The notes below the pieces were generated by a model. The model was not told the origin of the DNA. It worked only from the letters and a program-made list of their open reading frames with translations, and made no database searches. From Nitrospinota bacterium (GTDB lineage: Bacteria > Nitrospinota_A > UBA7883 > JACRLM01): a stretch of DNA of 64,000 nucleotides. This document shows, piece by piece, positions 9,152 to 53,960 of this stretch. The stretch covers positions 681,015 to 745,014 of the forward strand of contig JACQXA010000004.1 of the NCBI GenBank assembly GCA_016208975.1, read 5' to 3'. The first letter of the stretch is position 1. Each line of letters starts with the position of its first letter. The position numbers and the translations under genes were made by a program.

Positions 9152-10306
9152 GTGGCCAGGAGCCTATGGGTATGCCCCATGCATCCGAACGTGAAGCAGG
9201 AGGGCAAGGGTAGTTGCCCCATTTGCGGGATGAACCTTGTTGAGAAGAAACCGGCGTCCGCTGGCAAGACGCCCGGCGCCACTGTGGACGCGGGCGCCCT
9301 TCAGCGCCTGGGGGTGAGGCTGGCCACGGCGCAGATGACCCGTCTTGAAAGAAAGATCAAGACCTACGGAATAGCCACCATGGACGAAACATCCATCGTC
9401 ACGGTAAATCCTAAAGTGGACGGCTGGATAAAAAGGCTCAACGCCAACACCGTGGGCAAGAAAATAAGGTCAGGGGATGTACTTTACGAGATATATTCGC
9501 CGGACCTTGTCCAGCGCCAGCGTGAATATATCGAGTTGATGCTCCGGCGCGACCAGCTCTCCGAAAGCATGAAGGATAACATCACGGGTCAAAACGCCGA
9601 GGTGCTGGCAAGCCTGGCGCGGGAACGCTGGCGCGCCAGGGAAAAACTGCTCCTTGCGGATATGGATGAGGAGACGTTAAAGCGGATCGAAGAGAAAAAG
9701 CGCCCCGTGGAGTTCACTCCCGTCCGCGCCCGCCGGGGCGGGGTGGTTACCGCCGTCACGGCGCGGGAGGGCGCCTACGTCACCCCCATGAGCCCGATAG
9801 TCACAATCGTGGATCTGTCCAGCGTATGGGTGGAGGTGCTTCTTTATCGCGACCAGCTCGAATGGGCGCGGGACGGGGCCGAGGCCACGGCCAGCCTGCC
9901 CGGCTCTGGAAAGCCGGTGGCCCAGGGCAAGCTTAGGTTCGTAAATCCCCTGATGGATCCCGCAAGCCAAACCCTGCGCGCAAGGCTGGAAGTTAACGGC
10001 GCCGCAACCGGCTTTACGCCAGGGATGAATGTGGATGTGCGCATAACGGCCGAATCGCGAGTGGCGCTTTGCGTTCCCAGGCCGGCGGTGATCCGGGACG
10101 GGCGCGGAGCGCGGGTTATGGTATCGAGAGGTAATGGGCTGTTCGCGCCGGTGCAAGTCAGAACGGGGGCCACCGACGGGGAAAACATGGAGATACTGGA
10201 GGGCTTGGCCGACGGGGATAGAGTGGCCGTCAACGGCCAGTTTCTGCTGGACTCCGCCGCCTCAATGAACGAGGCCGCCGAGAGGATGGGGCATCCGCAC
10301 AACTGA
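9152..10306 (+). CDS. cusB: CusB-type RND efflux membrane fusion protein with N-terminal metal-binding motif
   Basis: GTG start; VCPMHP...CPICGM motif then HlyD-like adaptor; no signal peptide of its own. Confidence 0.85.
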   Translation: MARSLWVCPMHPNVKQEGKGSCPICGMNLVEKKPASAGKTPGATVDAGALQRLGVRLATAQMTRLERKIKTYGIATMDETSIVTVNPKVDGWIKRLNANTVGKKIRSGDVLYEIYSPDLVQRQREYIELMLRRDQLSESMKDNITGQNAEVLASLARERWRAREKLLLADMDEETLKRIEEKKRPVEFTPVRARRGGVVTAVTAREGAYVTPMSPIVTIVDLSSVWVEVLLYRDQLEWARDGAEATASLPGSGKPVAQGKLRFVNPLMDPASQTLRARLEVNGAATGFTPGMNVDVRITAESRVALCVPRPAVIRDGRGARVMVSRGNGLFAPVQVRTGATDGENMEILEGLADGDRVAVNGQFLLDSAASMNEAAERMGHPHN

Positions 10307-10366
10307 AGTATGCGGAAAAAGCGTCCTGTAGTTTTCCGCCGTTTTAACCTCCACCGGTAAAATACG

Positions 10367-13300
10367 ATGATCGAAAAAGTAATAGCCTGGTCGCTGAGGA
10401 ACAGGCCGCTGGTCCTTCTGGGATCGCTTCTGCTGGCGGCGTGGGGCTGGCATTCTTCCCGCCACATGGCGTTGGACGCCATACCTGACCTTTCCGACAC
10501 ACAGGTGATCGTCAAAACCAGCTTCCCCGGCCAAGCCCCCCAGATAGTGGAGGATCAGGTCACCTATCCCCTGGCCACCGCCCTGCTTTCGGCGCCAAGG
10601 TCGGTGGCGGTCCGGGGTTTTTCCATGTTCGGCGAGTCGAACATCTACATAATCTTCGAGGATGGCGTCGACCCCTATTGGGCCAGGGCAAGGGTGAGCG
10701 AATATCTTGGCCAGCTTGCCGGCAGGCTACCGGCCGGGGTGACGCCCTCCTTGGGGCCGGACGCCTCAGGCGTGGGATGGATACTGGAATACGCCATCGT
10801 GGACAGGAACGGCTCCCACAACCCCGATGAGCTTCGGGCCATCCAGGATTTTTATCTGAAGTTCGAGTTGCAAAGTCTTCCGGGGGTGGCGGAGGTGGCC
10901 ACTGTTGGAGGCATGGCGCGGCAGTTCCAGGTTGAAATGGACCCGGACAGGATGACCGCCGCAGGGGTGACGTTGGAAAGCGTGGAAATGGCCATACGGA
11001 ACGCCAACGTTTCAGGCGGCGGCTCTGTCACCGAAATGAGCGGGGCCGAATACATGATCCGCTCCCACGGCCACCTTAAAACATTGGATGATTTCGGGCT
11101 TATATCACTGGGCATAAGCGACTCCGGCTCCCCTATCCTTTTAAAGGACATAGCCAATATACAGACCGGCCCTGAAACGAGGCGTGGCGTGGCGGACCTT
11201 GACGGCGAGGGAGAGGCTACCGGAGGTATAGTGATAATGCGGCCTGGCCAGAACGCCCTGGATATCATCAGCCGTGTCAAGGCTCGGCTTGAGGAGTTGA
11301 AATCCGGCCTGCCGCCGGGGGTGGAGATCGTGATCACCTACGACCGCTCCGGCCTGATCAACAGGGCCATTGACAACCTCACCGGCAAACTGCTGGAAGA
11401 GTCACTGGCGGTGGCGGCCGTGTGCCTGCTGTTTCTTTTCCATCTGCGCTCGTCTCTCGTGGCGGTGGTTACCCTTCCCCTGGGAATTCTTGCCGCCATC
11501 GGCGTGATGCGCCAGCAAGGGGCCCCGGCGGACATCATGTCCCTCGGCGGGATAGCCATCGCCATCGGCGCCATGGTGGACGCCGCAGTGGTGATGATAG
11601 AGAACATGCACAAGAGCATGGAGAAGGCCGCGCCCGGAGAGGACCGATGGGAGATAGTTTACAGAAGCTCGGTTGAAGTGGGGCCAGCGCTTTTTTTCTC
11701 CCTGCTCGTGATAACGGTTTCCTTCCTGCCCGTGTTCACGCTTACGGGCCAGGAGGGAAAGCTGTTCACTCCGCTGGCTTTCACCAAGACTTACGCCATG
11801 GCCGCCAGCGCCGCGCTGGCGATAACGCTCACGCCGGTCCTTATGGGCTATTTTGTCCGGGGCAGGATAGCGCCTGAGTCCGCCAATCCTCTAAACCGCT
11901 TTTTCCAGGCGCTGTACAGGCCAGCTTTGCTTACGTCCCTGAGGCATAAGGGGCGCACCATGGCGCTGGCAATGGCGCTCACCATATCGGCCTTGTGGCC
12001 GGCGGCCAGACTCGGTAGCGAGTTTATGCCTTCGTTGTACGAAGGGGATCTGCTCTACATGCCCACAACCCTTCCGGGCGTGTCGGTGGACGAGGCGGCC
12101 AGGATCACACAAATCACCGACAGGATCATCAAGACCATGCCGGAGGTGGAGCGGGTGTTCGGCAAGGCGGGCAGGGCGGAAACCGCCACGGATCCCGCGC
12201 CTCTTTCCATGCTGGAAACCACCATACTCTTAAAGCCCCAGAGCCAATGGCCCGCGGGCGAAAGCATAGACGACCTTGTGCGCAAGCTGGACGCGGCCGT
12301 TTCCCTCCCCGGCCTTATAAACTCCTGGGGATATCCCATTCGCACGAGGATTGACATGCTCTCCACGGGGATTAAGACTCCCCTGGGGGTGAAAATAACC
12401 GGGCCGGACTCCCAAGGAGTGGCGGATTTGGCCAGCGAGATCGAAATGGTCATCAAGAATGTGAGGGGAACGCGGAACGTGTTCGCCGACCGCGCCGCCA
12501 GCGGCAGGTACATAGACGTGGTTATGGACCGGGCCGAGTCGGCCAGATACGGTGTCAGCGCCGCGGACATTAAGAGGCTTATGGAAAACGCCATAGGCGG
12601 GGAGACCATAGGCTATGTGATAGACGGGCGGCAACGGTTCTCCATCGCCATGAGGGTTCCGCGCTCGTTCCGCGAATCCCCGGAGGCAATAGGCGCCACG
12701 CGCATCTCTACGCCGATGGGAGCGCAGATCCCTCTGAGCCACGTGGCCAGGGTTGAAATCTCCAACGGCCCGTCAGAGATCAAAAGCGAGAACGGCAGGC
12801 TGGCGGGCTATGTGTACATAGACATGGCGGGAAGGGATTTGGGCGGTTACGCCGGGGAGGCCAGGCTGGCCGTGACCTCGAAGATAAAACTCAAGCCCGG
12901 TTACGCTATCACGTGGTCAGGCCAATACGAGAGCATGGAGCGGGCGCGGGAGCGGCTCTATCTGGCGGTCCCTCTGACGCTGGCGCTGGTGTTCATCCTC
13001 CTTTACATGTATTTCCGAAGCGCCGGGAAGGTGGCGCTTGTGCTGTTAAGTCTTCCCTTCGCGCTGTCCGGCGGGCTGTGGCTGGTGTACCTGCTGGGAT
13101 ACAACCTTTCCGTGGCAGTGGCAGTGGGCTTTATCGCGCTGGCGGGGGTTGCGGCGGAGTTCGGCGTGGTGATGATTCTTTATATAGACAACGCGTTCAG
13201 GGAAGGAAGCGGTGGCGATGTAACTTCGGCGGTGATCCAGGGTGCGCTGGCCAGGATACGGCCCAAGATGATGACCGTTACGGTGATAGTGGCAGGCCTT

Positions 13301-32265: not shown

Positions 32266-33359
32266 TTGTCGCCCAGCCTTCTGATGGCAAGCCCAACGGC
32301 CACAACGGCCATCGGCGCGATTTTCTCGATGTATTCCGGATCGAAGACCTTGGTGTTCACCTTTATGTTCCGGAAGGGGTTTATCAGCTCGCAGGAAAGC
32401 CCCAGCTCCTGGCCCATAATGGTCTCCACCCCTTCGATCATGGCGGTGCCGCCGCAAACGCGCACCCGCCTTACACGGCTCTCCGAGGTGCGGTGGTACA
32501 TGTCGAAAGTTTTCTTCAGCTCGTCGCAGATCGCGGCCAAACCGGCCTTTAAGTGGGGTATCACCTGCTCACGGCGGAGGCCCCCCTCAAACACGCCCAG
32601 CTTGTACTTTTCCGCTTCCTTAAAGGGCACGTTCATGTTCTTCTGGATCGTCTCGGATATCTTGTTGCCCCCCATGGGAATGTCCCTGGTGTAGGCGGTT
32701 ATGCCGTTCTCTATTATGTTCACGTTGGTGATTGAGGCGCCTATGTTCACCAGCGCCACGGTGTCGTCGGCGTCCAGCCCATACGCCGCCTCGTAACCGT
32801 TCTCCAGGGCGAACACGTCCAGGTCCGCCACCGACGGCTTGAGCCCAGCGTTCTTTAAAATTTCCGCCTGCTCGCCCAGCACATCCTTTTTCACGGCCAC
32901 AAGAAGCACGTCCATCTGCCGGTCTTCATTCTCCGGCAGTTTCTGCCCCTTCTTGGGGATGGGACCCTCGTGCTTGACTATCTGGAAATCTACATTGACC
33001 TCGTCTATGTCGAAAGGAATGTATTGCTCGGCCTCCTGCTGGATGGATTCGGCCAGGTCGTCTTCGCTCATAAGTGGCACGGTGATCTTCTTTATGATCA
33101 CCGACTGGCCGGAAACGGAGAAAGCGCAGTTCTTGATGGAAGAAGGCACCTTCTCGGCGGCCATGAGGTTTTTCAGGGTGTCGGATACGGCTCCGGGGTT
33201 CTCCACCTCCCGCTCCACGATCGCATCGGGAGGCAAGGGGATCATGCCGAAATTAGCGAGTTCGTAACCGCGCTTGGTCTTTTTGACTAGCGCAAGCTTT
33301 ATGGAGTAGGAACCTATGTCCACCCCAAGACAGGGCCTGTTGGTCAATGCGAATAACAC
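32262..33359 (-). CDS. pilM: Type IV pilus assembly ATPase-like protein PilM
   Basis: Actin-like fold signature (CLGVDIGSYSIKLALV). Confidence 0.85.
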   Translation of the reverse strand: MLFALTNRPCLGVDIGSYSIKLALVKKTKRGYELANFGMIPLPPDAIVEREVENPGAVSDTLKNLMAAEKVPSSIKNCAFSVSGQSVIIKKITVPLMSEDDLAESIQQEAEQYIPFDIDEVNVDFQIVKHEGPIPKKGQKLPENEDRQMDVLLVAVKKDVLGEQAEILKNAGLKPSVADLDVFALENGYEAAYGLDADDTVALVNIGASITNVNIIENGITAYTRDIPMGGNKISETIQKNMNVPFKEAEKYKLGVFEGGLRREQVIPHLKAGLAAICDELKKTFDMYHRTSESRVRRVRVCGGTAMIEGVETIMGQELGLSCELINPFRNIKVNTKVFDPEYIEKIAPMAVVAVGLAIRRLGDK

Positions 33360-33387
33360 GGCCTACCTCTTCTTTTTATGGAATCAG

Positions 33388-33618
33388 TCAGTCGTCGCCA
33401 AAAACCCCGACGCGGTCGTCCAGATCCAGCCCCAGGGCGATTAGAATCTTCCGCTTGGTGTCCAACCTGCAAAAGTACCCTTTCTCCACCCGATCGATGG
33501 TCTGAACCGAAAGCCCGGTTTTCCGCGCCAGCTCAGCTTTACTCATCATCTTGGACTCACGGATCTCCCTAACCCTGTTCGGCTTCAGCTCTTCTCGCCC
33601 ACCGCCAGCTTGCGACAT
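33388..33618 (-). CDS. XRE-family helix-turn-helix transcriptional regulator
   Basis: 76 aa; MSKAELARKTGLSVQTIDRVEKG HTH; 29 nt upstream of pilM on the same strand. Confidence 0.65.
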   Translation of the reverse strand: MSQAGGGREELKPNRVREIRESKMMSKAELARKTGLSVQTIDRVEKGYFCRLDTKRKILIALGLDLDDRVGVFGDD

Positions 33619-33619
33619 C

Positions 33620-33870
33620 CGTGACCCCTCCAGAAATATAGTCTCTAATTACTATAAAAAACCATTTCCGGAGAACTTATCACGAAAGAAACTTAATTGT
33701 CAATAATTATTTAAAATTTGGGGTTAATTAATTGTATATTACATTATATTAATATTCTATTTTAAATTATATGAAATAAAATCAACTAATTTAAACCCAT
33801 AAATAGATAATTACCAATTAATACACATGCCATTATATGATAATTAGCGTCAATTTTATGACACTACCTC
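33620..33870. other. Strongly AT-rich non-coding block
   Basis: ~250 bp of A/T-dominated sequence with repeated ttaatt/tatatta units, in sharp contrast to flanking GC-rich genes. Confidence 0.7.
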
Positions 33871-34359
33871 CTATAAGCGCTCTATCCGGGCGGACATACT
33901 TGTCAAATCCACCAACGCCACAGTGGAATCCTTTTTTATCCATCCGCAACATTCTCCCGGGTTGACTAGAAGTGATCCGTTTTTCTTTTGAACCACAGCC
34001 TCATGGGTATGGCCAAAAACGATGAGGTCCGCATTACCTTCTGAAAGGTCATGCGGAATTCGCGCAGGCTCGTGAAACATGGATACCCGTTTGCCTGAAA
34101 GCTCCAGACTATGGGGCCTGTCGTTCAGCGTCCAGCCGTCCGCGCCGAACATTCTGGAGAGCCCGTCTTTCTCACCATCGTTGTTGCCGAATACGGCGTG
34201 AAGCGGGGATTTTAGATTTTTGAAGGGGATAAGGGCGAATGGAGCCACAAAATCGCCACAATGGAGGACAGCGCCAACTCCCGCTTCATTGAAAAAGCTC
34301 ACGGCCTTTTCGATTTGCGGAATCCGGTCATGCGTATCTGAAACCACACCAATAAGCAT
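33871..34359 (-). CDS. Metallophosphoesterase, YfcE/MJ0936 family
   Basis: SDTHD, GDFV, GNND, GHTH metal-binding motifs. Confidence 0.8.
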   Translation of the reverse strand: MLIGVVSDTHDRIPQIEKAVSFFNEAGVGAVLHCGDFVAPFALIPFKNLKSPLHAVFGNNDGEKDGLSRMFGADGWTLNDRPHSLELSGKRVSMFHEPARIPHDLSEGNADLIVFGHTHEAVVQKKNGSLLVNPGECCGWIKKDSTVALVDLTSMSARIERL

Positions 34360-34584
34360 GCGCTCTCCCTTTGTAACATCCAGGGACGTATGTGTCCAAA
34401 AACCACCAACCTTTAACGAATATAACCTTAAATCAGGCGAAATTCAAACCTGTTTCTTCCAAAGGGTTTGAAAATCCGCAAATTTCATTTTTGCGGCGGC
34501 GTGATTTTTTTTAGCCCAATAAGCGGCATACGCAATTGCCAGCCGGGGTTTCCCCGGAAAGTTAATATGATTTTGAGTGGGATA

Positions 34585-34611
34585 TTGTCAAACGCGGTGT
34601 TCTTCTATAAT
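34585..34611 (+). promoter_or_regulatory. Candidate sigma70-type promoter for tRNA-Pro
   Basis: TTGTCA (34585-34590), 15 bp spacer, perfect TATAAT (34606-34611), 15 nt before tRNA. Confidence 0.4.
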
Positions 34612-34626
34612 ATGGACAATCTGTCT

Positions 34627-34703
<77 letters not shown>

Positions 34704-42362: not shown

Positions 42363-42551
42363 ATGAAGAAGAAAATCGGTAAGGCGCCAACCTGTAAACA
42401 TTGCGGTGGGGCCATGATAGACAGGTTCGATGAGCTAACCTGCGTCATGTGCGGCAGGATTTCTAGCCACTCGTGTGAAAACTGTTTGAAATTAGAGGAG
42501 GAAAGGCCGGCATCCGCAAAGCGGGGCGGTAAGAGGGCCAGCGCGGCCTAA
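42363..42551 (+). CDS. Small zinc-ribbon protein
   Basis: CKHCGG ... CVMCG pairs; SD ggagg before ATG. Confidence 0.4.
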   Translation: MKKKIGKAPTCKHCGGAMIDRFDELTCVMCGRISSHSCENCLKLEEERPASAKRGGKRASAA

Positions 42552-44974: not shown

Positions 44975-46084
44975 TCACCAGCGCAAACTACCGCAAGGAG
45001 TTCTCTTGAACAAGGAACGCCAGAGATGGTCTTTTTCTGGTGGGGCGCCAATCTTGACGATCTCGATAAATCCCTTTGCCTGACCTTTTTTTGCGTTTTC
45101 AGTTATAGGCCCTGCATAGAAAGTTGAATCCTCAAGCTTGGTTATTGGTTCGGCCTTCCGGCCATCAATATCCCCGTATCCAAATGCAAGAATATTTACT
45201 TCATTCGGGCGTTTTGCGATGTAGCGAGACAGTTCAAGGGCTGTGGTGCTCGATATATAATTGGCGAGAACATCTTGGAGCAACCAGAATGTTTTACCGT
45301 TCCATGCAATGCCCACCTGAGATTTTACGATAAGTTGGCTTACCATCCGCGCCCATACCTGACGGTAGTTGATGCCTGGTCCATTATGGCTTGAAGGATC
45401 AATTATTGCGTCCTCGCAAGCCATCGGGATTTGGGTCCTTTTCTTCTTGTCGCCACCAGAGGTGCTTGAGGTCATAATCTCGACAATGGTTATTGGATCC
45501 GTGGGGAAATCTTCAATCCAATGCTCGCCATTTCGAATGGCTATCGTATAACCGTTTGCCTCTGCAAGTGGCAGTGTAGCTCGTTCTCCTTTCCCAATCA
45601 GTCCTGCTACCTCGGAAAGCCTCTTCCGGCCTGACCCCGCAATAATATAGTCAAACGAATAATCAAATGACTTTGCTTCATCATCGTCATTTCTCGTCTC
45701 AATCTTCATCTTCACTTCTGACCATGCGCGATATGTTCTGCCTGAGTCAAGTTGAGCATACTTTGCGAGTTGTGTCCGCACATGCGTTTGGTAGTCGGTC
45801 TGTGTTTGCGCGCGAAGTGATAAAAGCCGACGCGGGCAAACTATCCAAGGCTGTTCTCCATCACGAAGTCTAAGTGAACAAACACCGGATTGCACAATAA
45901 CCTTACCGGGGAAAAATTTCCGCAAATTACGGCTTTTGCGCAAATCTAATGCTGAAAGGTAACGGTTTCCACCACCATCACACTCAGCATCCATAAAAGG
46001 ACACCATGCTTTCGCTCGGTTTTCTGCGGCTTCCTCGTTCCAGCAATCAAGCCGGTATCCGTACAATTCAAATATCTTGCTCAT
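44975..46084 (-). CDS. Type II restriction endonuclease, putatively NotI-like
   Basis: Overlaps and follows the C5 methyltransferase gene; N-terminal four-Cys pattern WCPF...C...GVCSL...WIVCPRRL recalled as resembling the NotI metal-binding module; lower GC than surroundings. Confidence 0.6.
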   Translation of the reverse strand: MSKIFELYGYRLDCWNEEAAENRAKAWCPFMDAECDGGGNRYLSALDLRKSRNLRKFFPGKVIVQSGVCSLRLRDGEQPWIVCPRRLLSLRAQTQTDYQTHVRTQLAKYAQLDSGRTYRAWSEVKMKIETRNDDDEAKSFDYSFDYIIAGSGRKRLSEVAGLIGKGERATLPLAEANGYTIAIRNGEHWIEDFPTDPITIVEIMTSSTSGGDKKKRTQIPMACEDAIIDPSSHNGPGINYRQVWARMVSQLIVKSQVGIAWNGKTFWLLQDVLANYISSTTALELSRYIAKRPNEVNILAFGYGDIDGRKAEPITKLEDSTFYAGPITENAKKGQAKGFIEIVKIGAPPEKDHLWRSLFKRTPCGSLRW

Positions 46085-47189
46085 CCAAGAACCTCATTAT
46101 CTGTTGCCCAAGAATGCGAGCCAATGGAGGGGGAACGGAATTTGCCACCTGTCTATGTTGATCGAGATTTCGCACAGAACCCGTTCTGGATCTTATAGGA
46201 CCTTTAAGAATATAGTCGTCAGGATAACCATGTATCCTCATGTATTCGCGTGGAGTTAGATATCGGTTTTCAGTAGGATGATAGAATATCTCTCCGCATC
46301 GAAGAGTGTTTGCGGGTCGCTTGCGATGGAGGCGAAGATATTTCGTTGTGTCCTTAGGGGACAAACCGCACCGAAGTTCTTCACCTAGATGTGTTTGTGC
46401 GGAAAGATAAGATCCTTCTGGAACTTGAGCGATTCGTTCTCGATCTCTTGGTGGAGTCACATCAACATGACTATCAAGCCTTTCATAAACAGTTTTCCCC
46501 TGTATTTTGGAATCTGGTTTCCCAAGACCTTTGATTGCTTTTCCAGTTCCAACGTACGGTTGATAATGAAAAAGTCCATTGCATTCTTCCGCTGGAGCAT
46601 GGGTTCTCTCGGGAAAAACAAAACCATTACGTCCCCGCGTTGCAATGACAAAGAGCCGCTCTCGCAGTTGCGGAACCCCGAAATCAGACGCAAGAATGGC
46701 ACGCCATTTTGGAGTATAATTAATTTTCTCCAGTTCACTTAGAAAATTTTCAAAGACCTCACCTCGGCGATTCGTGTGACCTTTGGATGACAATAGCCCC
46801 TTGACTTGCTCAAGTAAAATCACTTTGGGTTGAATGGACTTTGCAAAGCGAATGATCTCAAAAAGTAGAGGACCCCGCTCGTCACTTAAACCAAGTTGCT
46901 TCCCAGCCAATGAAAACGACTGACATGGTGGACCACCGAATAGAATATCCAATTCACCTTTCTTAATGTTAAGTTCTTTCAGTAGTGATTGGGGATCGAC
47001 GTTGCGGATATCCTTTTGAATTATTCGTGAATTGTAATTGTTATTTTCCGCATTGGCCCGCAATGTAGCGCAACAATGTTCATCAATTTCCAGTTCAGCC
47101 AATACTTCAAAACCTGCATCTCTGATGCCAATATCCATACCGCCAGCCCCAGAAAAGAGACTTATTGATTTCCTGATGCTAGAATTCAT
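46068..47189 (-). CDS. DNA (cytosine-5)-methyltransferase
   Basis: Motif I FSGAGG, motif IV GGPPCQ, LLEQV (ENV-like); start at MNSSIRK. Confidence 0.85.
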   Translation of the reverse strand: MNSSIRKSISLFSGAGGMDIGIRDAGFEVLAELEIDEHCCATLRANAENNNYNSRIIQKDIRNVDPQSLLKELNIKKGELDILFGGPPCQSFSLAGKQLGLSDERGPLLFEIIRFAKSIQPKVILLEQVKGLLSSKGHTNRRGEVFENFLSELEKINYTPKWRAILASDFGVPQLRERLFVIATRGRNGFVFPERTHAPAEECNGLFHYQPYVGTGKAIKGLGKPDSKIQGKTVYERLDSHVDVTPPRDRERIAQVPEGSYLSAQTHLGEELRCGLSPKDTTKYLRLHRKRPANTLRCGEIFYHPTENRYLTPREYMRIHGYPDDYILKGPIRSRTGSVRNLDQHRQVANSVPPPLARILGQQIMRFLDEQDI

Positions 47190-47392
47190 CGTGATAGGTG
47201 ATAACGGTAGTAGTATTAGGGCGCGTTTTTTAAGCATTTTACACAAGAATTGTTATTATACCACCATCCAATTCAGACAATACGCGATAATTACCGACAC
47301 GTAATCGGAATCGTTTCATCAGCAACCTTTCGCGCCAAGGTGATTAAACCAAGTTTTTTACTTTGCCGAGTTTACGCCACCTTGCTAATCCA

Positions 47393-53162: not shown

Positions 53163-53960
53163 ATGTCCGGCACGCTAACGGTAATTATCGTCCTAGCCAT
53201 TATCACGGCCTCTTCCATCCGCATTTTGAACGAATATGAACGGGGCGTCATATTCCGCCTGGGCCGTTATTACAAGGTAAAGGGGCCAGGCATGATAATA
53301 GTCTGGCCAGTGATAGATAAGATGGTGCGCATTTCCCTTCGCCTTGTGGCGCTCGATGTGCCCCCGCAAGACATCATAACGCGGGACAACGTGTCCATGA
53401 AGGTCAATGCGGTGGTCTATTTTAAAGTGGTGGAGCCGGAGAAGGCCGTCATCCAGGTTCAGGATTATTTTTACGCCACGGGCCAGCTTTCGCAAACCTC
53501 ACTACGGTCCGTGCTGGGGCAGGTGGATCTGGACTCCATCCTGGCCGAGCGGGACAAGATAAACCACGAACTGCAAGCCATTCTGGACAAGCGGACAGAC
53601 CCGTGGGGCATAAAGGTGAGCAACGTTGAGATAAAACATGTGGACCTGCCCGCCGAGATGCAACGGGCCATGGCCAAACAGGCCGAGGCCGAACGGGAAC
53701 GGCGCGCCAAGGTGATCAACTCCCTCGGCGAATTTGAGGCGGCCGCAAAGCTGGCCGAAGCGGCGGAGATCATTTCCGGCCGCCCTGCCGCGCTCACATT
53801 GCGTTATCTGCAAACATTACGCGAGATGTCCTCGGAACACACCACGAACACCATCATTCCGCTTCCCATCGAGATCGTGGAGCCGTTCCTGCACTCCATG
53901 CGGCAGGCCGCTAATAAAGCTGGCGGCACAAGGGCCGGTCAGCAATCCTCGGAAGCGTAA
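53163..53960 (+). CDS. SPFH/band-7 (stomatin-like) protein
   Basis: N-terminal TM helix then SPFH body, coiled-coil C-terminus; SD ggaggg. Confidence 0.8.

What the first reader, a model, noticed from the sequence alone, without database searches (positions are those of the whole stretch)
44975..47246. Lower-GC islet with a Type II restriction-modification pair; endonuclease may be NotI-like
Seen: two overlapping minus-strand genes in a stretch that is visibly AT-richer than its surroundings. The upstream one is a C5-cytosine methyltransferase (FSGAGG, GGPPCQ). The downstream 369 aa protein has four spaced cysteines near its N-terminus (WCPF, AEC, GVCSL, WIVCPRRL). Established, from my recollection of the family: NotI carries an N-terminal four-Cys iron-binding module and is paired with a C5 methyltransferase. 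Inference: a horizontally acquired NotI-family system with an 8 bp GC-rich target; one GCGGCCGC site occurs in the window at 53739-53746, so it must be methylated or the specificity differs.
Basis: partly seen in the sequence, partly recalled or inferred. Interest (0 to 1): 0.55.

Follow-up and report, generated by a model that had tools for sequence, protein, structure and literature searches.

The report
NotI-fold restriction-modification gene pair
This is an ordinary, horizontally acquired two-gene restriction-modification cassette whose nuclease has the fold of the rare-cutter NotI, but it belongs to an uncharacterised sister branch that uses a different kind of protective methylase, so its DNA target is unknown.

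Summary
Two overlapping minus-strand genes sit in the deepest GC trough of the window (0.456 against 0.567). The upstream gene is an intact C5-cytosine methyltransferase. Its real start is probably the ATG at 47189, not 47246.

The 369 aa protein hits no Pfam, NCBIfam or PDB sequence, but it is a true NotI-fold enzyme:
- Profile-profile probability 97.4 %.
- Four invariant cysteines, and an aligned catalytic Asp and Glu.

Close orthologues are already named "NotI family restriction endonuclease" in RefSeq.

Genuine NotI and four orthologues are paired with an N4/N6-type methylase (PF01555), whereas this clade is paired with a C5 methylase in 78 of 80 genomes. Specificity could not be determined, and a GCGGCCGC target is not supported. 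The window has two such sites, not one, which is within chance.

The cassette consists of the two coding sequences only. It keeps about 45 % GC in hosts of 41-70 % GC and is scattered over more than 15 phyla. Verdict: a new member of a known kind, of low to moderate interest.

The parts
44975..46084 (-). R gene: 369 aa NotI-fold restriction endonuclease (putative).
45836..46003 (-). N-terminal Cys4 metal-binding module (C28, C35, C69, C83, including the invariant CDGGGNR and WIVCPRR motifs).
   Evidence: The four Cys are invariant in 69 sequences down to 25 % identity. C28, C69 and C83 align with NotI C42, C65 and C81. The NotI Cys4 motif binds Fe (PMC4081073, PMC4176176).
45323..45667 (-). 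PD-(D/E)XK catalytic core: FD145Y on strand 2, E202-I-M204 on strand 3, and the helix N239...R246...Q250...K254.
   Evidence: Aligned to NotI D160, E182-I-Q184, N230 and K245. These residues are invariant or nearly invariant. NotI is a PD...ExQ enzyme (PMC4081073).
45518..45637 (-). Insert of about 40 aa (two helices plus a hairpin) between core strands 2 and 3. It is absent from NotI and from the divergent branch of the family.
   Evidence: It appears as a gap in NotI in hhalign. Secondary structure. Shorter family members match in two stretches that skip this region. Its function is inferred only.
46068..47189 (-). M gene: 373 aa C5-cytosine DNA methyltransferase. The mechanical ORF extends to the TTG at 47246.
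   Evidence: PF00145 1.3e-64 and TIGR00675 5e-58. Motifs I, IV (PCQ), VI, VIII, IX and X are present. Orthologues align from the ATG at 47189.
46257..46649 (-). Variable target-recognition region of the methyltransferase, between motifs VIII and IX.
   Evidence: No similarity to any solved methyltransferase. Conserved among the 78 orthologues, which are 55-84 % identical over the full length. Unrelated to the methylase of the divergent branch.
46068..46095 (-). M/R junction: a GAGG Shine-Dalgarno-like motif (46095-46092), the R start ATG (46084-46082), and the M stop TGA (46070-46068). The overlap is 17 nt.
   Evidence: Read from the sequence. The same junction is conserved in relatives, with a 17 nt overlap in 40 loci and 8 nt in 12.
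47190..47392 (-). Low-GC (0.40) spacer between the proB stop and the M start. It contains TGGTATAAT (47263-47255), which resembles an extended -10 element. It is not shared with any related cassette.
   Evidence: The promoter role is inferred from the consensus only, and the scan tool did not call it because there is no -35 element at the right spacing.

Best explanation
This is a compact Type IIP-style restriction-modification cassette. The C5-cytosine methyltransferase (46068-47189) methylates a specific, still unknown, C-containing site on host DNA. The 369 aa protein (44975-46084) is a Mg2+-dependent PD-(D/E)XK endonuclease of the NotI fold that cuts the same site when it is unmethylated. 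Its N-terminal Cys4 module binds a structural metal (Fe in NotI) that positions DNA-recognition elements. Catalysis uses D145 and E202. The usual Lys (Gln in NotI) is Met here, so its role is probably taken by another invariant basic residue such as K254. The R gene starts inside the 3' end of M behind its own GAGG motif, so R translation is coupled to, and follows, M translation. That would let methylation precede restriction after transfer. The cassette consists of the two coding sequences only, has moved repeatedly between distant phyla, and landed here between a PTPS/QueD-like gene and proB of a Nitrospinota genome.

Shown: the gene pair, its motifs, the fold, the homology, the linkage, and the composition and distribution.

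Inferred: nuclease activity, the metal, the coupling mechanism, and the roles of individual residues. The specificity is unknown.
For: - **Methyltransferase:** PF00145 1.3e-64 with all catalytic motifs.
- **Sequence homology:** hmmsearch of the family profile against the PDB puts NotI top at E 0.004 in three collinear pieces. hhalign against NotI gives 96.7 % and against a 22-sequence NotI-family profile 97.4 %, E 1.1e-11, over 201 columns.
- **Conserved residues:** C28, C35, C69, C83, E202 and K254 are invariant, and D145, M204 and N239 are nearly invariant, in 69 sequences down to 25 % identity.
- **Linkage:** an orthologous C5 methylase lies directly upstream in 78 of 80 genomes. The two exceptions are truncated R genes. 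M and R identities correlate at r = 0.88, and the overlap junction with GAGG is conserved.
- **Mobility:** similarity to relatives is limited to 47189-44981. Module GC is 0.454 +/- 0.042 against flanks of 0.558 +/- 0.064, and it is lower in 61 of 64 loci. The family is in 280 species-representative genomes over more than 15 phyla plus one archaeon. Vsr, resolvase and integrase genes are neighbours in some loci.
- **Annotation:** RefSeq names the 76 %-identical orthologues 'NotI family restriction endonuclease'.
Against: - No biochemical evidence for any member was found with these tools.
- The third position of the catalytic motif is Met, which cannot do what Lys or Gln does. Activity therefore needs a compensating residue, and that is only inferred.
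- There are no hits in Pfam, NCBIfam or PHROGs, and only a 30-residue weak PADLOC REase_II hit. The control shows that the Pfam NotI model misses NotI itself as well.
- No depletion of any particular site was detectable in host DNA, so there is no in silico sign of restriction pressure.
- No empty site was found to prove the insertion.
Confidence: 0.85

Rival explanations
1. It is a true NotI isoschizomer system. The nuclease cuts GCGGCCGC and the C5 methylase protects that 8 bp site.
For: The fold and Cys4 module are the same as in NotI. Two of the three NotI residues reported to contact the second and seventh C:G pair are conserved: N230 aligns with N239 and G190 with G210.
Against: - Structure-based identity to NotI is only 19 %, and the C-terminal ~110 residues do not align.
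- H189 is Ser here.
- All five NotI-clade loci use a PF01555 amino-methylase, not a C5 methylase.
- GCGGCCGC is not depleted in about 1 Mb of carrier flanks, with 74 observed against 77.7 expected.
- The two sites in the window are within chance.
- Specificity has clearly diversified inside the wider family: the methylase of the divergent branch is 26 % identical with a different variable region.
Confidence: 0.08
2. It is an EagI/Eco52I-like system. A NotI-fold nuclease cuts the inner hexamer CGGCCG and is protected by a C5 methylase that makes CGG(5mC)CG.
For: M.EagI is a C5 methylase acting on CGGCCG (PMC3141236), which is the kind of partner seen here. EagI's site is the core of the NotI site, and the window nuclease shares NotI's core fold. 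CGGCCG is mildly under-represented in carrier flanks, with 537 observed against 743 expected.
Against: - No EagI or Eco52I sequence was available, so no homology test could be run.
- There is no relative of the cassette in 5,426 complete E. coli genomes or in plasmids.
- The CGGCCG deficit is weaker than that of many other hexamer palindromes in the same data.
- That EagI is related to NotI in sequence is only my recollection, and I could not confirm it in the papers held.
Confidence: 0.15
3. The 369 aa protein is not an active restriction enzyme. It is a decayed or repurposed partner of an effectively solitary methyltransferase, for example a DNA-binding or regulatory protein or a repair nuclease.
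Against: - D145, E202 and the four Cys are invariant or nearly invariant in 69 sequences down to 25 % identity. The Met itself is conserved across the whole family rather than being a lesion of this copy.
- The genes are full length in 78 of 80 loci, with strict linkage and co-variation with the methylase.
- In the divergent branch the R gene sits behind a controller-type HTH gene, as in classical C-regulated R-M systems.
Confidence: 0.05

Closest known systems
NotI restriction endonuclease (Nocardia otitidiscaviarum; PDB 3BVQ/3C25)
   Different: Identity is about 19-25 %. The second Cys is in a different position (C55 against C35 within an invariant CDGGGNR motif). The motif is ExM instead of ExQ. 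The base-contacting H189 is Ser. There is a 40 aa insert between core strands 2 and 3. The C-terminal third does not align. The partner methylase is C5 (PF00145) instead of N4/N6-type (PF01555). The specificity is unknown.
RefSeq 'NotI family restriction endonuclease' WP_143117037.1 (Allochromatium warmingii) and WP_143339796.1 (Ectothiorhodospira magna)
   Same: These are direct orthologues. They are 76 % identical, the same length, and have the same upstream C5 methylase with the same overlap.
   Different: They are names from automated annotation only, and I found no experimental characterisation. The window's own copy (MBI4666155.1) is deposited as 'hypothetical protein'.
EagI/Eco52I restriction-modification systems (CGGCCG, with a C5 methylase making CGG5mCCG)
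   Same: A C5-methylase-protected Type IIP system whose site is the core of the NotI site (PMC3141236, PMC3089450). This is the only characterised combination I could find in the papers held that would fit 'NotI-related site plus m5C protection'.
Divergent branch of the same family (for example P0238 in L172 and P0216 in L171)
   Same: The same Cys4 and catalytic motifs, at 25-29 % identity. In L172 the partner is a C5 methylase.
   Different: An HTH_3 controller-type gene lies upstream of R. The methylase is convergent, 459 aa long, and has an unrelated variable region (26 % identity). The 40 aa insert is missing.

Membership tests
NotI-fold restriction endonucleases (structural superfamily of 3BVQ) | Overall three-dimensional similarity to NotI that clearly exceeds similarity to other PD-(D/E)XK nucleases. 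| tested here: met
NotI-fold restriction endonucleases (structural superfamily of 3BVQ) | N-terminal tetra-cysteine metal-binding module. | tested here: met
   C28, C35, C69 and C83 are invariant in 69 sequences. Three of them align with NotI C42, C65 and C81. Metal identity and occupancy cannot be tested here.
NotI-fold restriction endonucleases (structural superfamily of 3BVQ) | PD...ExQ catalytic motif (D160, E182, Q184). | tested here: inconclusive
   The Asp and Glu align and are conserved (D145, E202). The third position is a nearly invariant Met, not Gln or Lys (PMC4081073).
NotI-fold restriction endonucleases (structural superfamily of 3BVQ) | Statistically supported sequence-profile similarity to the NotI family. 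| tested here: met
   hhalign of family against family gives probability 97.4 %, E 1.1e-11, over 201 columns. hmmsearch against the PDB puts NotI top at E 0.004.
Pfam PF12183 (NotI) | A score above the gathering threshold (22 bits). | tested here: inconclusive
   There is no hit for the window protein or for 27 close relatives. Three divergent members give sub-threshold hits, the best at 18.2 bits. The model also fails to hit NotI itself and two orthologues at E <= 0.01, so the test does not discriminate.
NotI orthologues / isoschizomers (GCGGCCGC systems) | A partner methyltransferase of the N4/N6 amino-methylase type (PF01555) directly upstream. | tested here: not met
   All 5 NotI-clade loci have PF01555. 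The window and 78 of 80 relatives have PF00145 C5 methylases.
NotI orthologues / isoschizomers (GCGGCCGC systems) | Direct sequence similarity to NotI at the orthologue level (the NotI clade stays at 40 % identity or more). | tested here: not met
   phmmer against the PDB finds nothing. Neither family search, each listing its best 120 hits, shows a member of the other family. Identity is 19-25 % in structural and profile alignments.
NotI orthologues / isoschizomers (GCGGCCGC systems) | Conservation of the residues that read the site (known to me only for the second and seventh base pair: N230, H189, G190). | tested here: inconclusive
   N aligns with N239, which is conserved. G aligns with G210, also conserved. 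H aligns with S209, which is changed. Contacts to the other base pairs were not available because the NotI paper is not held.
NotI orthologues / isoschizomers (GCGGCCGC systems) | Cleavage of GCGGCCGC. | not testable with these tools
   Site counts in the window (2 against 4.5 +/- 2.3) and in carrier flanks (74 against 77.7) are uninformative.
Type II restriction-modification system | An intact DNA methyltransferase with all catalytic motifs. | tested here: met
   PF00145 1.3e-64 and TIGR00675 above its cut-off. Motifs I FSGAGG, IV GGPPCQ, VI, VIII QLRER, IX and X are present.
Type II restriction-modification system | A separate nuclease gene stably linked to the methylase across hosts. | tested here: met
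   78 of 80 loci, r = 0.88 between M and R divergence, and a conserved overlap.
Type II restriction-modification system | Site-specific cleavage that is blocked by the cognate methylation. | not testable with these tools
   This needs biochemistry or a methylome.

The most novel reading that the evidence does not exclude
The C5-methylase-linked sister clade of NotI (about 1200 proteins, none found characterised here) recognises a site not covered by any known prototype, possibly a long G+C-rich rare-cutter site. It would cut with an unusual PD...ExM active site in which the canonical Lys/Gln function has moved to another residue, such as K254 on the following helix, assisted by a 40 aa helical insert that NotI lacks.
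Probability: 0.3. Interest if true: 0.4.

Novelty: new member of a known kind. Interest (0 to 1): 0.25.

Why it matters
For this genome it simply marks a recently acquired defence or selfish cassette, and it upgrades a "hypothetical protein" to a NotI-fold restriction endonuclease.

More generally, the analysis shows that NotI-fold enzymes split into at least two large clades with different protective chemistry: m4C-type PF01555 methylases for NotI proper, and m5C for this clade. It also shows that the current Pfam NotI model recognises neither NotI itself nor this clade.

Cultured carriers exist (Allochromatium warmingii DSM 173, Thiothrix eikelboomii ATCC 49788, Ectothiorhodospira magna, Thiospirillum jenense). 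The specificity could therefore be determined easily, and if the site is long the enzyme could be a useful reagent. None of this would surprise a restriction-enzyme specialist.

Tried and rejected
1. **Direct family and sequence searches of the 369 aa protein.** Pfam, NCBIfam, PHROGs, and PDB by phmmer and by a close-family profile gave nothing. PADLOC gave only a 30-residue weak hit.
3. **Specificity from site statistics.** Counts of GCGGCCGC and CGGCCG in the window are within chance. A Markov-model palindrome analysis of about 1 Mb of carrier flanks and of the window showed only generic palindrome depletion and nothing specific.
4. **Specificity from the methylase.** Its variable region matches no solved methyltransferase. 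M.HaeIII, M.HhaI and DNMT1 match only the catalytic motifs.
5. **Annotated homologues.** None in plasmids, phages or complete E. coli genomes. There are only 4 distant relatives in 2.9 million viral contigs.
6. **Empty-site proof of insertion.** The closest ProB loci in metagenomes are at most 52 % identical and not syntenic.
7. **Flanking repeats.** Only short chance-level matches, with no terminal repeats or target duplication.
8. **My impression of a toxin remnant.** I thought the 26-codon ORF upstream of M (MKRFRLRVGNYRVLSELDGGIITILV) was a RelE/ParE toxin remnant. It has no support in Pfam, NCBIfam or the PDB, so I dropped it.
9. **The NotI structure paper (PMC2390919).** It is not held. 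The supplement of the Orlowski and Bujnicki classification is not held either. I therefore could not check the full set of NotI DNA contacts or whether EagI belongs to the NotI group.
10. **Promoter and terminator scan of the islet.** Counts equal the shuffled expectation.
Full report
**Observation.** They overlap by 17 nt. The quoted peptide motifs are all present. GC falls to 0.42-0.47 across 44.9-47.4 kb against 0.55-0.63 on each side, and at 1 kb resolution this is the deepest and widest trough in the window. Two details need correcting. First, the upstream ORF's TTG at 47246 is only the mechanical limit. Protein and nucleotide similarity to every orthologue begins at the ATG at 47189, giving 373 aa, the length called in other genomes. 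Second, the window contains two GCGGCCGC sites (38370 and 53739), not one, against 4.5 +/- 2.3 in shuffles.

**The methyltransferase.** It is an unremarkable, intact C5-cytosine DNA methyltransferase: PF00145 at 1.3e-64 and TIGR00675 at 5e-58. Motifs I (FSGAGG), IV (GGPPCQ), VI, VIII (QLRER), IX and X are in order. The region between motifs VIII and IX, which sets the target in this family (established knowledge of C5 methylases), resembles no solved methyltransferase. M.HaeIII, M.HhaI and DNMT1 match the catalytic parts only.

**The 369 aa protein: first searches.** Direct searches were empty. There is no Pfam, NCBIfam or PHROGs family and no PDB sequence. PADLOC gave only a weak 30-residue REase_II hit over GVCSL...WIVCPRRL. 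The protein belongs to a large and strongly conserved family. There are 1186 hits in the 90 % clustered collection, still 62-86 % identical across unrelated phyla, and 263 clusters at 50 % identity in the exhaustive search. The identical protein is MBI4666155.1 of a Nitrospinota MAG, deposited as hypothetical. In an alignment of 69 members down to 25 % identity, C28, C35, C69, C83, W80, P84, R86, E202, R246, K254, W267 and Q270 are invariant. D145, M204, T205, N239, R241 and Q242 are nearly so.

**Is it NotI-like?** Yes, on three independent lines of evidence.
1. *Sequence profile against the PDB.* A profile that includes divergent members puts NotI (3BVQ/3C25) first among 177,635 PDB sequences (E 0.004), in three collinear pieces. 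These pair WC28PF with TC42PF, GVC69 with GVC65, WIVC83PRR with WLVC81PNR, FD145Y with FD160W, E202-I-M with E182-I-Q, and the helix N239...K254 with N230...K245.
2. *Profile against profile.* hhalign gives 96.7 % against NotI alone. Against a 22-sequence alignment of genuine NotI relatives it gives 97.4 %, E 1.1e-11, over 201 columns.

The literature held confirms that NotI has a mono-iron Cys4 structural centre and a PD...ExQ active site (PMC4176176; PMC4081073). Public annotation already reflects the kinship. The 76 %-identical proteins of Allochromatium warmingii and Ectothiorhodospira magna are 'NotI family restriction endonuclease' in RefSeq and 'Restriction endonuclease NotI' in UniRef. 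The empty Pfam result is not evidence against this, because the current PF12183 model does not detect NotI itself or two orthologues at E <= 0.01. It gives only sub-threshold hits to three divergent members of the window's family.

**How it differs from NotI.**
- Identity is only 19-25 %.
- The last ~110 residues do not align.
- The second cysteine lies elsewhere: NotI C55 against C35, which sits in an invariant CDGGGNR motif.
- The Gln of ExQ is a conserved Met.
- A 40-residue helical insert (residues 150-189) sits between core strands 2 and 3. It is missing from NotI and from the shorter, divergent members.
- Three NotI residues are reported to read the second and seventh C:G pair. N230 and G190 are conserved as N239 and G210, but H189 is Ser209 (PMC3089450).
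- Most importantly, the partner methylase is of a different class. NotI in the N. otitidiscaviarum genome, and four orthologues at 40-45 % identity, all have a PF01555 N6/N4-type methylase directly upstream. Because GCGGCCGC has no adenine, that enzyme must make N4-methylcytosine. This last step is an inference from established knowledge of PF01555.

**Linkage and mobility.**
- Among species-representative genomes, 280 encode a relative. The best 80 span Pseudomonadota, Latescibacterota, Cloacimonadota, Kiritimatiellia, Planctomycetota, Lentisphaerota, Chloroflexota, Verrucomicrobiota, Spirochaetota, Bacillota, Bacteroidota, Actinomycetota, Armatimonadota, Nitrospirota, Myxococcota and one Methanomassiliicoccaceae archaeon.
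- In 78 of those 80 an orthologous C5 methylase (55-84 % identical over its whole length, variable region included) lies directly upstream. One exception is an R gene cut by the contig end and the other is a partial R gene.
- M and R divergence from the window pair correlate at r = 0.88 over 74 loci.
- The junction is conserved. A GAGG-like motif lies 7 nt before the R start, and the M stop lies inside R codons 5-6. The overlap is 17 nt in 40 loci and 8 nt in 12. This arrangement is the basis for inferring translational coupling. There is no controller gene.
- Nucleotide similarity between the window and every relative is confined to 47189-44981, that is, to the two coding sequences. The closest relative is about 74 % identical in DNA.
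- Over 64 loci the cassette keeps GC 0.454 +/- 0.042 while the host flanks range from 0.41 to 0.70 (mean 0.558). It is lower than its flanks in 61 of 64. The window fits the pattern at 0.456 against 0.567.
- Neighbours differ from genome to genome and sometimes include Vsr, resolvase or integrase genes.
- The cassette is absent from the plasmid, phage and E. coli collections and almost absent from viral contigs, with 4 distant hits.
- In this genome it lies between a convergent PTPS/QueD-like gene (after CutA and a RimO-like radical-SAM gene) and proB.
- I could not find an empty site or flanking repeats.

**The wider family.** Two of the most divergent members show another layout. An HTH_3 controller-type gene lies directly upstream of R, and in one case a convergent 459 aa C5 methylase follows. 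Its variable region is unrelated to the window's (26 % identity). C5 pairing thus seems general for the family, but specificity and regulation have diversified.

**Specificity.** It remains undetermined. Site statistics carry no signal, and the methylase variable region has no characterised look-alike among the data I could reach. One concrete hypothesis is an EagI-like system. M.EagI is a C5 methylase making CGG(5mC)CG (PMC3141236), and EagI cuts the inner hexamer of the NotI site (PMC3089450). I had no EagI sequence and could not confirm from the papers held that EagI is related to NotI. I give this 0.15, a true NotI specificity 0.08, and leave the rest to 'some other site'.

**Verdict.** This is a real, intact, horizontally acquired Type II restriction-modification cassette. 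Close orthologues are already annotated as NotI family and nothing about the architecture is unusual, so this is a new member of a known kind. Two mildly interesting points emerge. The NotI fold splits into an m4C-type-partnered clade and a large, apparently uncharacterised, m5C-partnered clade with an ExM active-site variant. And the current Pfam NotI model misses both.

Noticed in passing
window 47190-47392 (-): A 200 nt low-GC (0.40) spacer lies between the proB stop and the methylase start, and it is not shared with any related cassette. It contains TGGTATAAT (47263-47255), which resembles an extended -10 element. It also holds a 26-codon ORF, MKRFRLRVGNYRVLSELDGGIITILV*, that reminded me of RelE/ParE toxin C-termini. 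Pfam, NCBIfam and the PDB give no support for that.
   Followed up: yes
The total of two is within chance expectation.
   Followed up: yes
Pfam PF12183 against P0290 (NotI), P0317 and P0405: The current Pfam 'NotI' model does not detect NotI itself or its orthologues at E <= 0.01. It gives only sub-threshold hits to divergent members of the window's family. The model seems to represent some other branch of the superfamily.
   Followed up: partly
L171 2727-4176; L172 2761-5447: Divergent members of the family have a different operon layout. An HTH_3/HTH_31 controller-type gene lies directly upstream of R, and in L172 a convergent 459 aa C5 methylase with an unrelated variable region follows.
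   Followed up: partly
window 33000-34700: A second short low-GC patch (0.46) lies just upstream of tRNA-Pro(GGG) at 34627-34703. It holds a 76 aa XRE-like HTH ORF (33388-33618, -) and a 162 aa ORF (33871-34359, -). It was not analysed further.
   Followed up: no
window 42363-42551 (+): A small ORF with two CxxC pairs (KHCGG...CVMCG), zinc-ribbon-like, sits in an AT-rich intergenic patch upstream of the RimO-like radical-SAM gene.
   Followed up: no
L004 4411-4749; L003 2857-4823: In other hosts the cassette sits beside a Vsr mismatch endonuclease gene (L004), or beside TIR-domain (ThsB-like) genes and resolvases (L003). That suggests residence in defence or mobile islands.
   Followed up: no
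L043 (Methanomassiliicoccaceae archaeon MAG) 10001-11098: An orthologue 57 % identical, with its C5 methylase, occurs in an archaeal MAG from a termite-gut data set, which indicates inter-domain transfer of the cassette.
   Followed up: no
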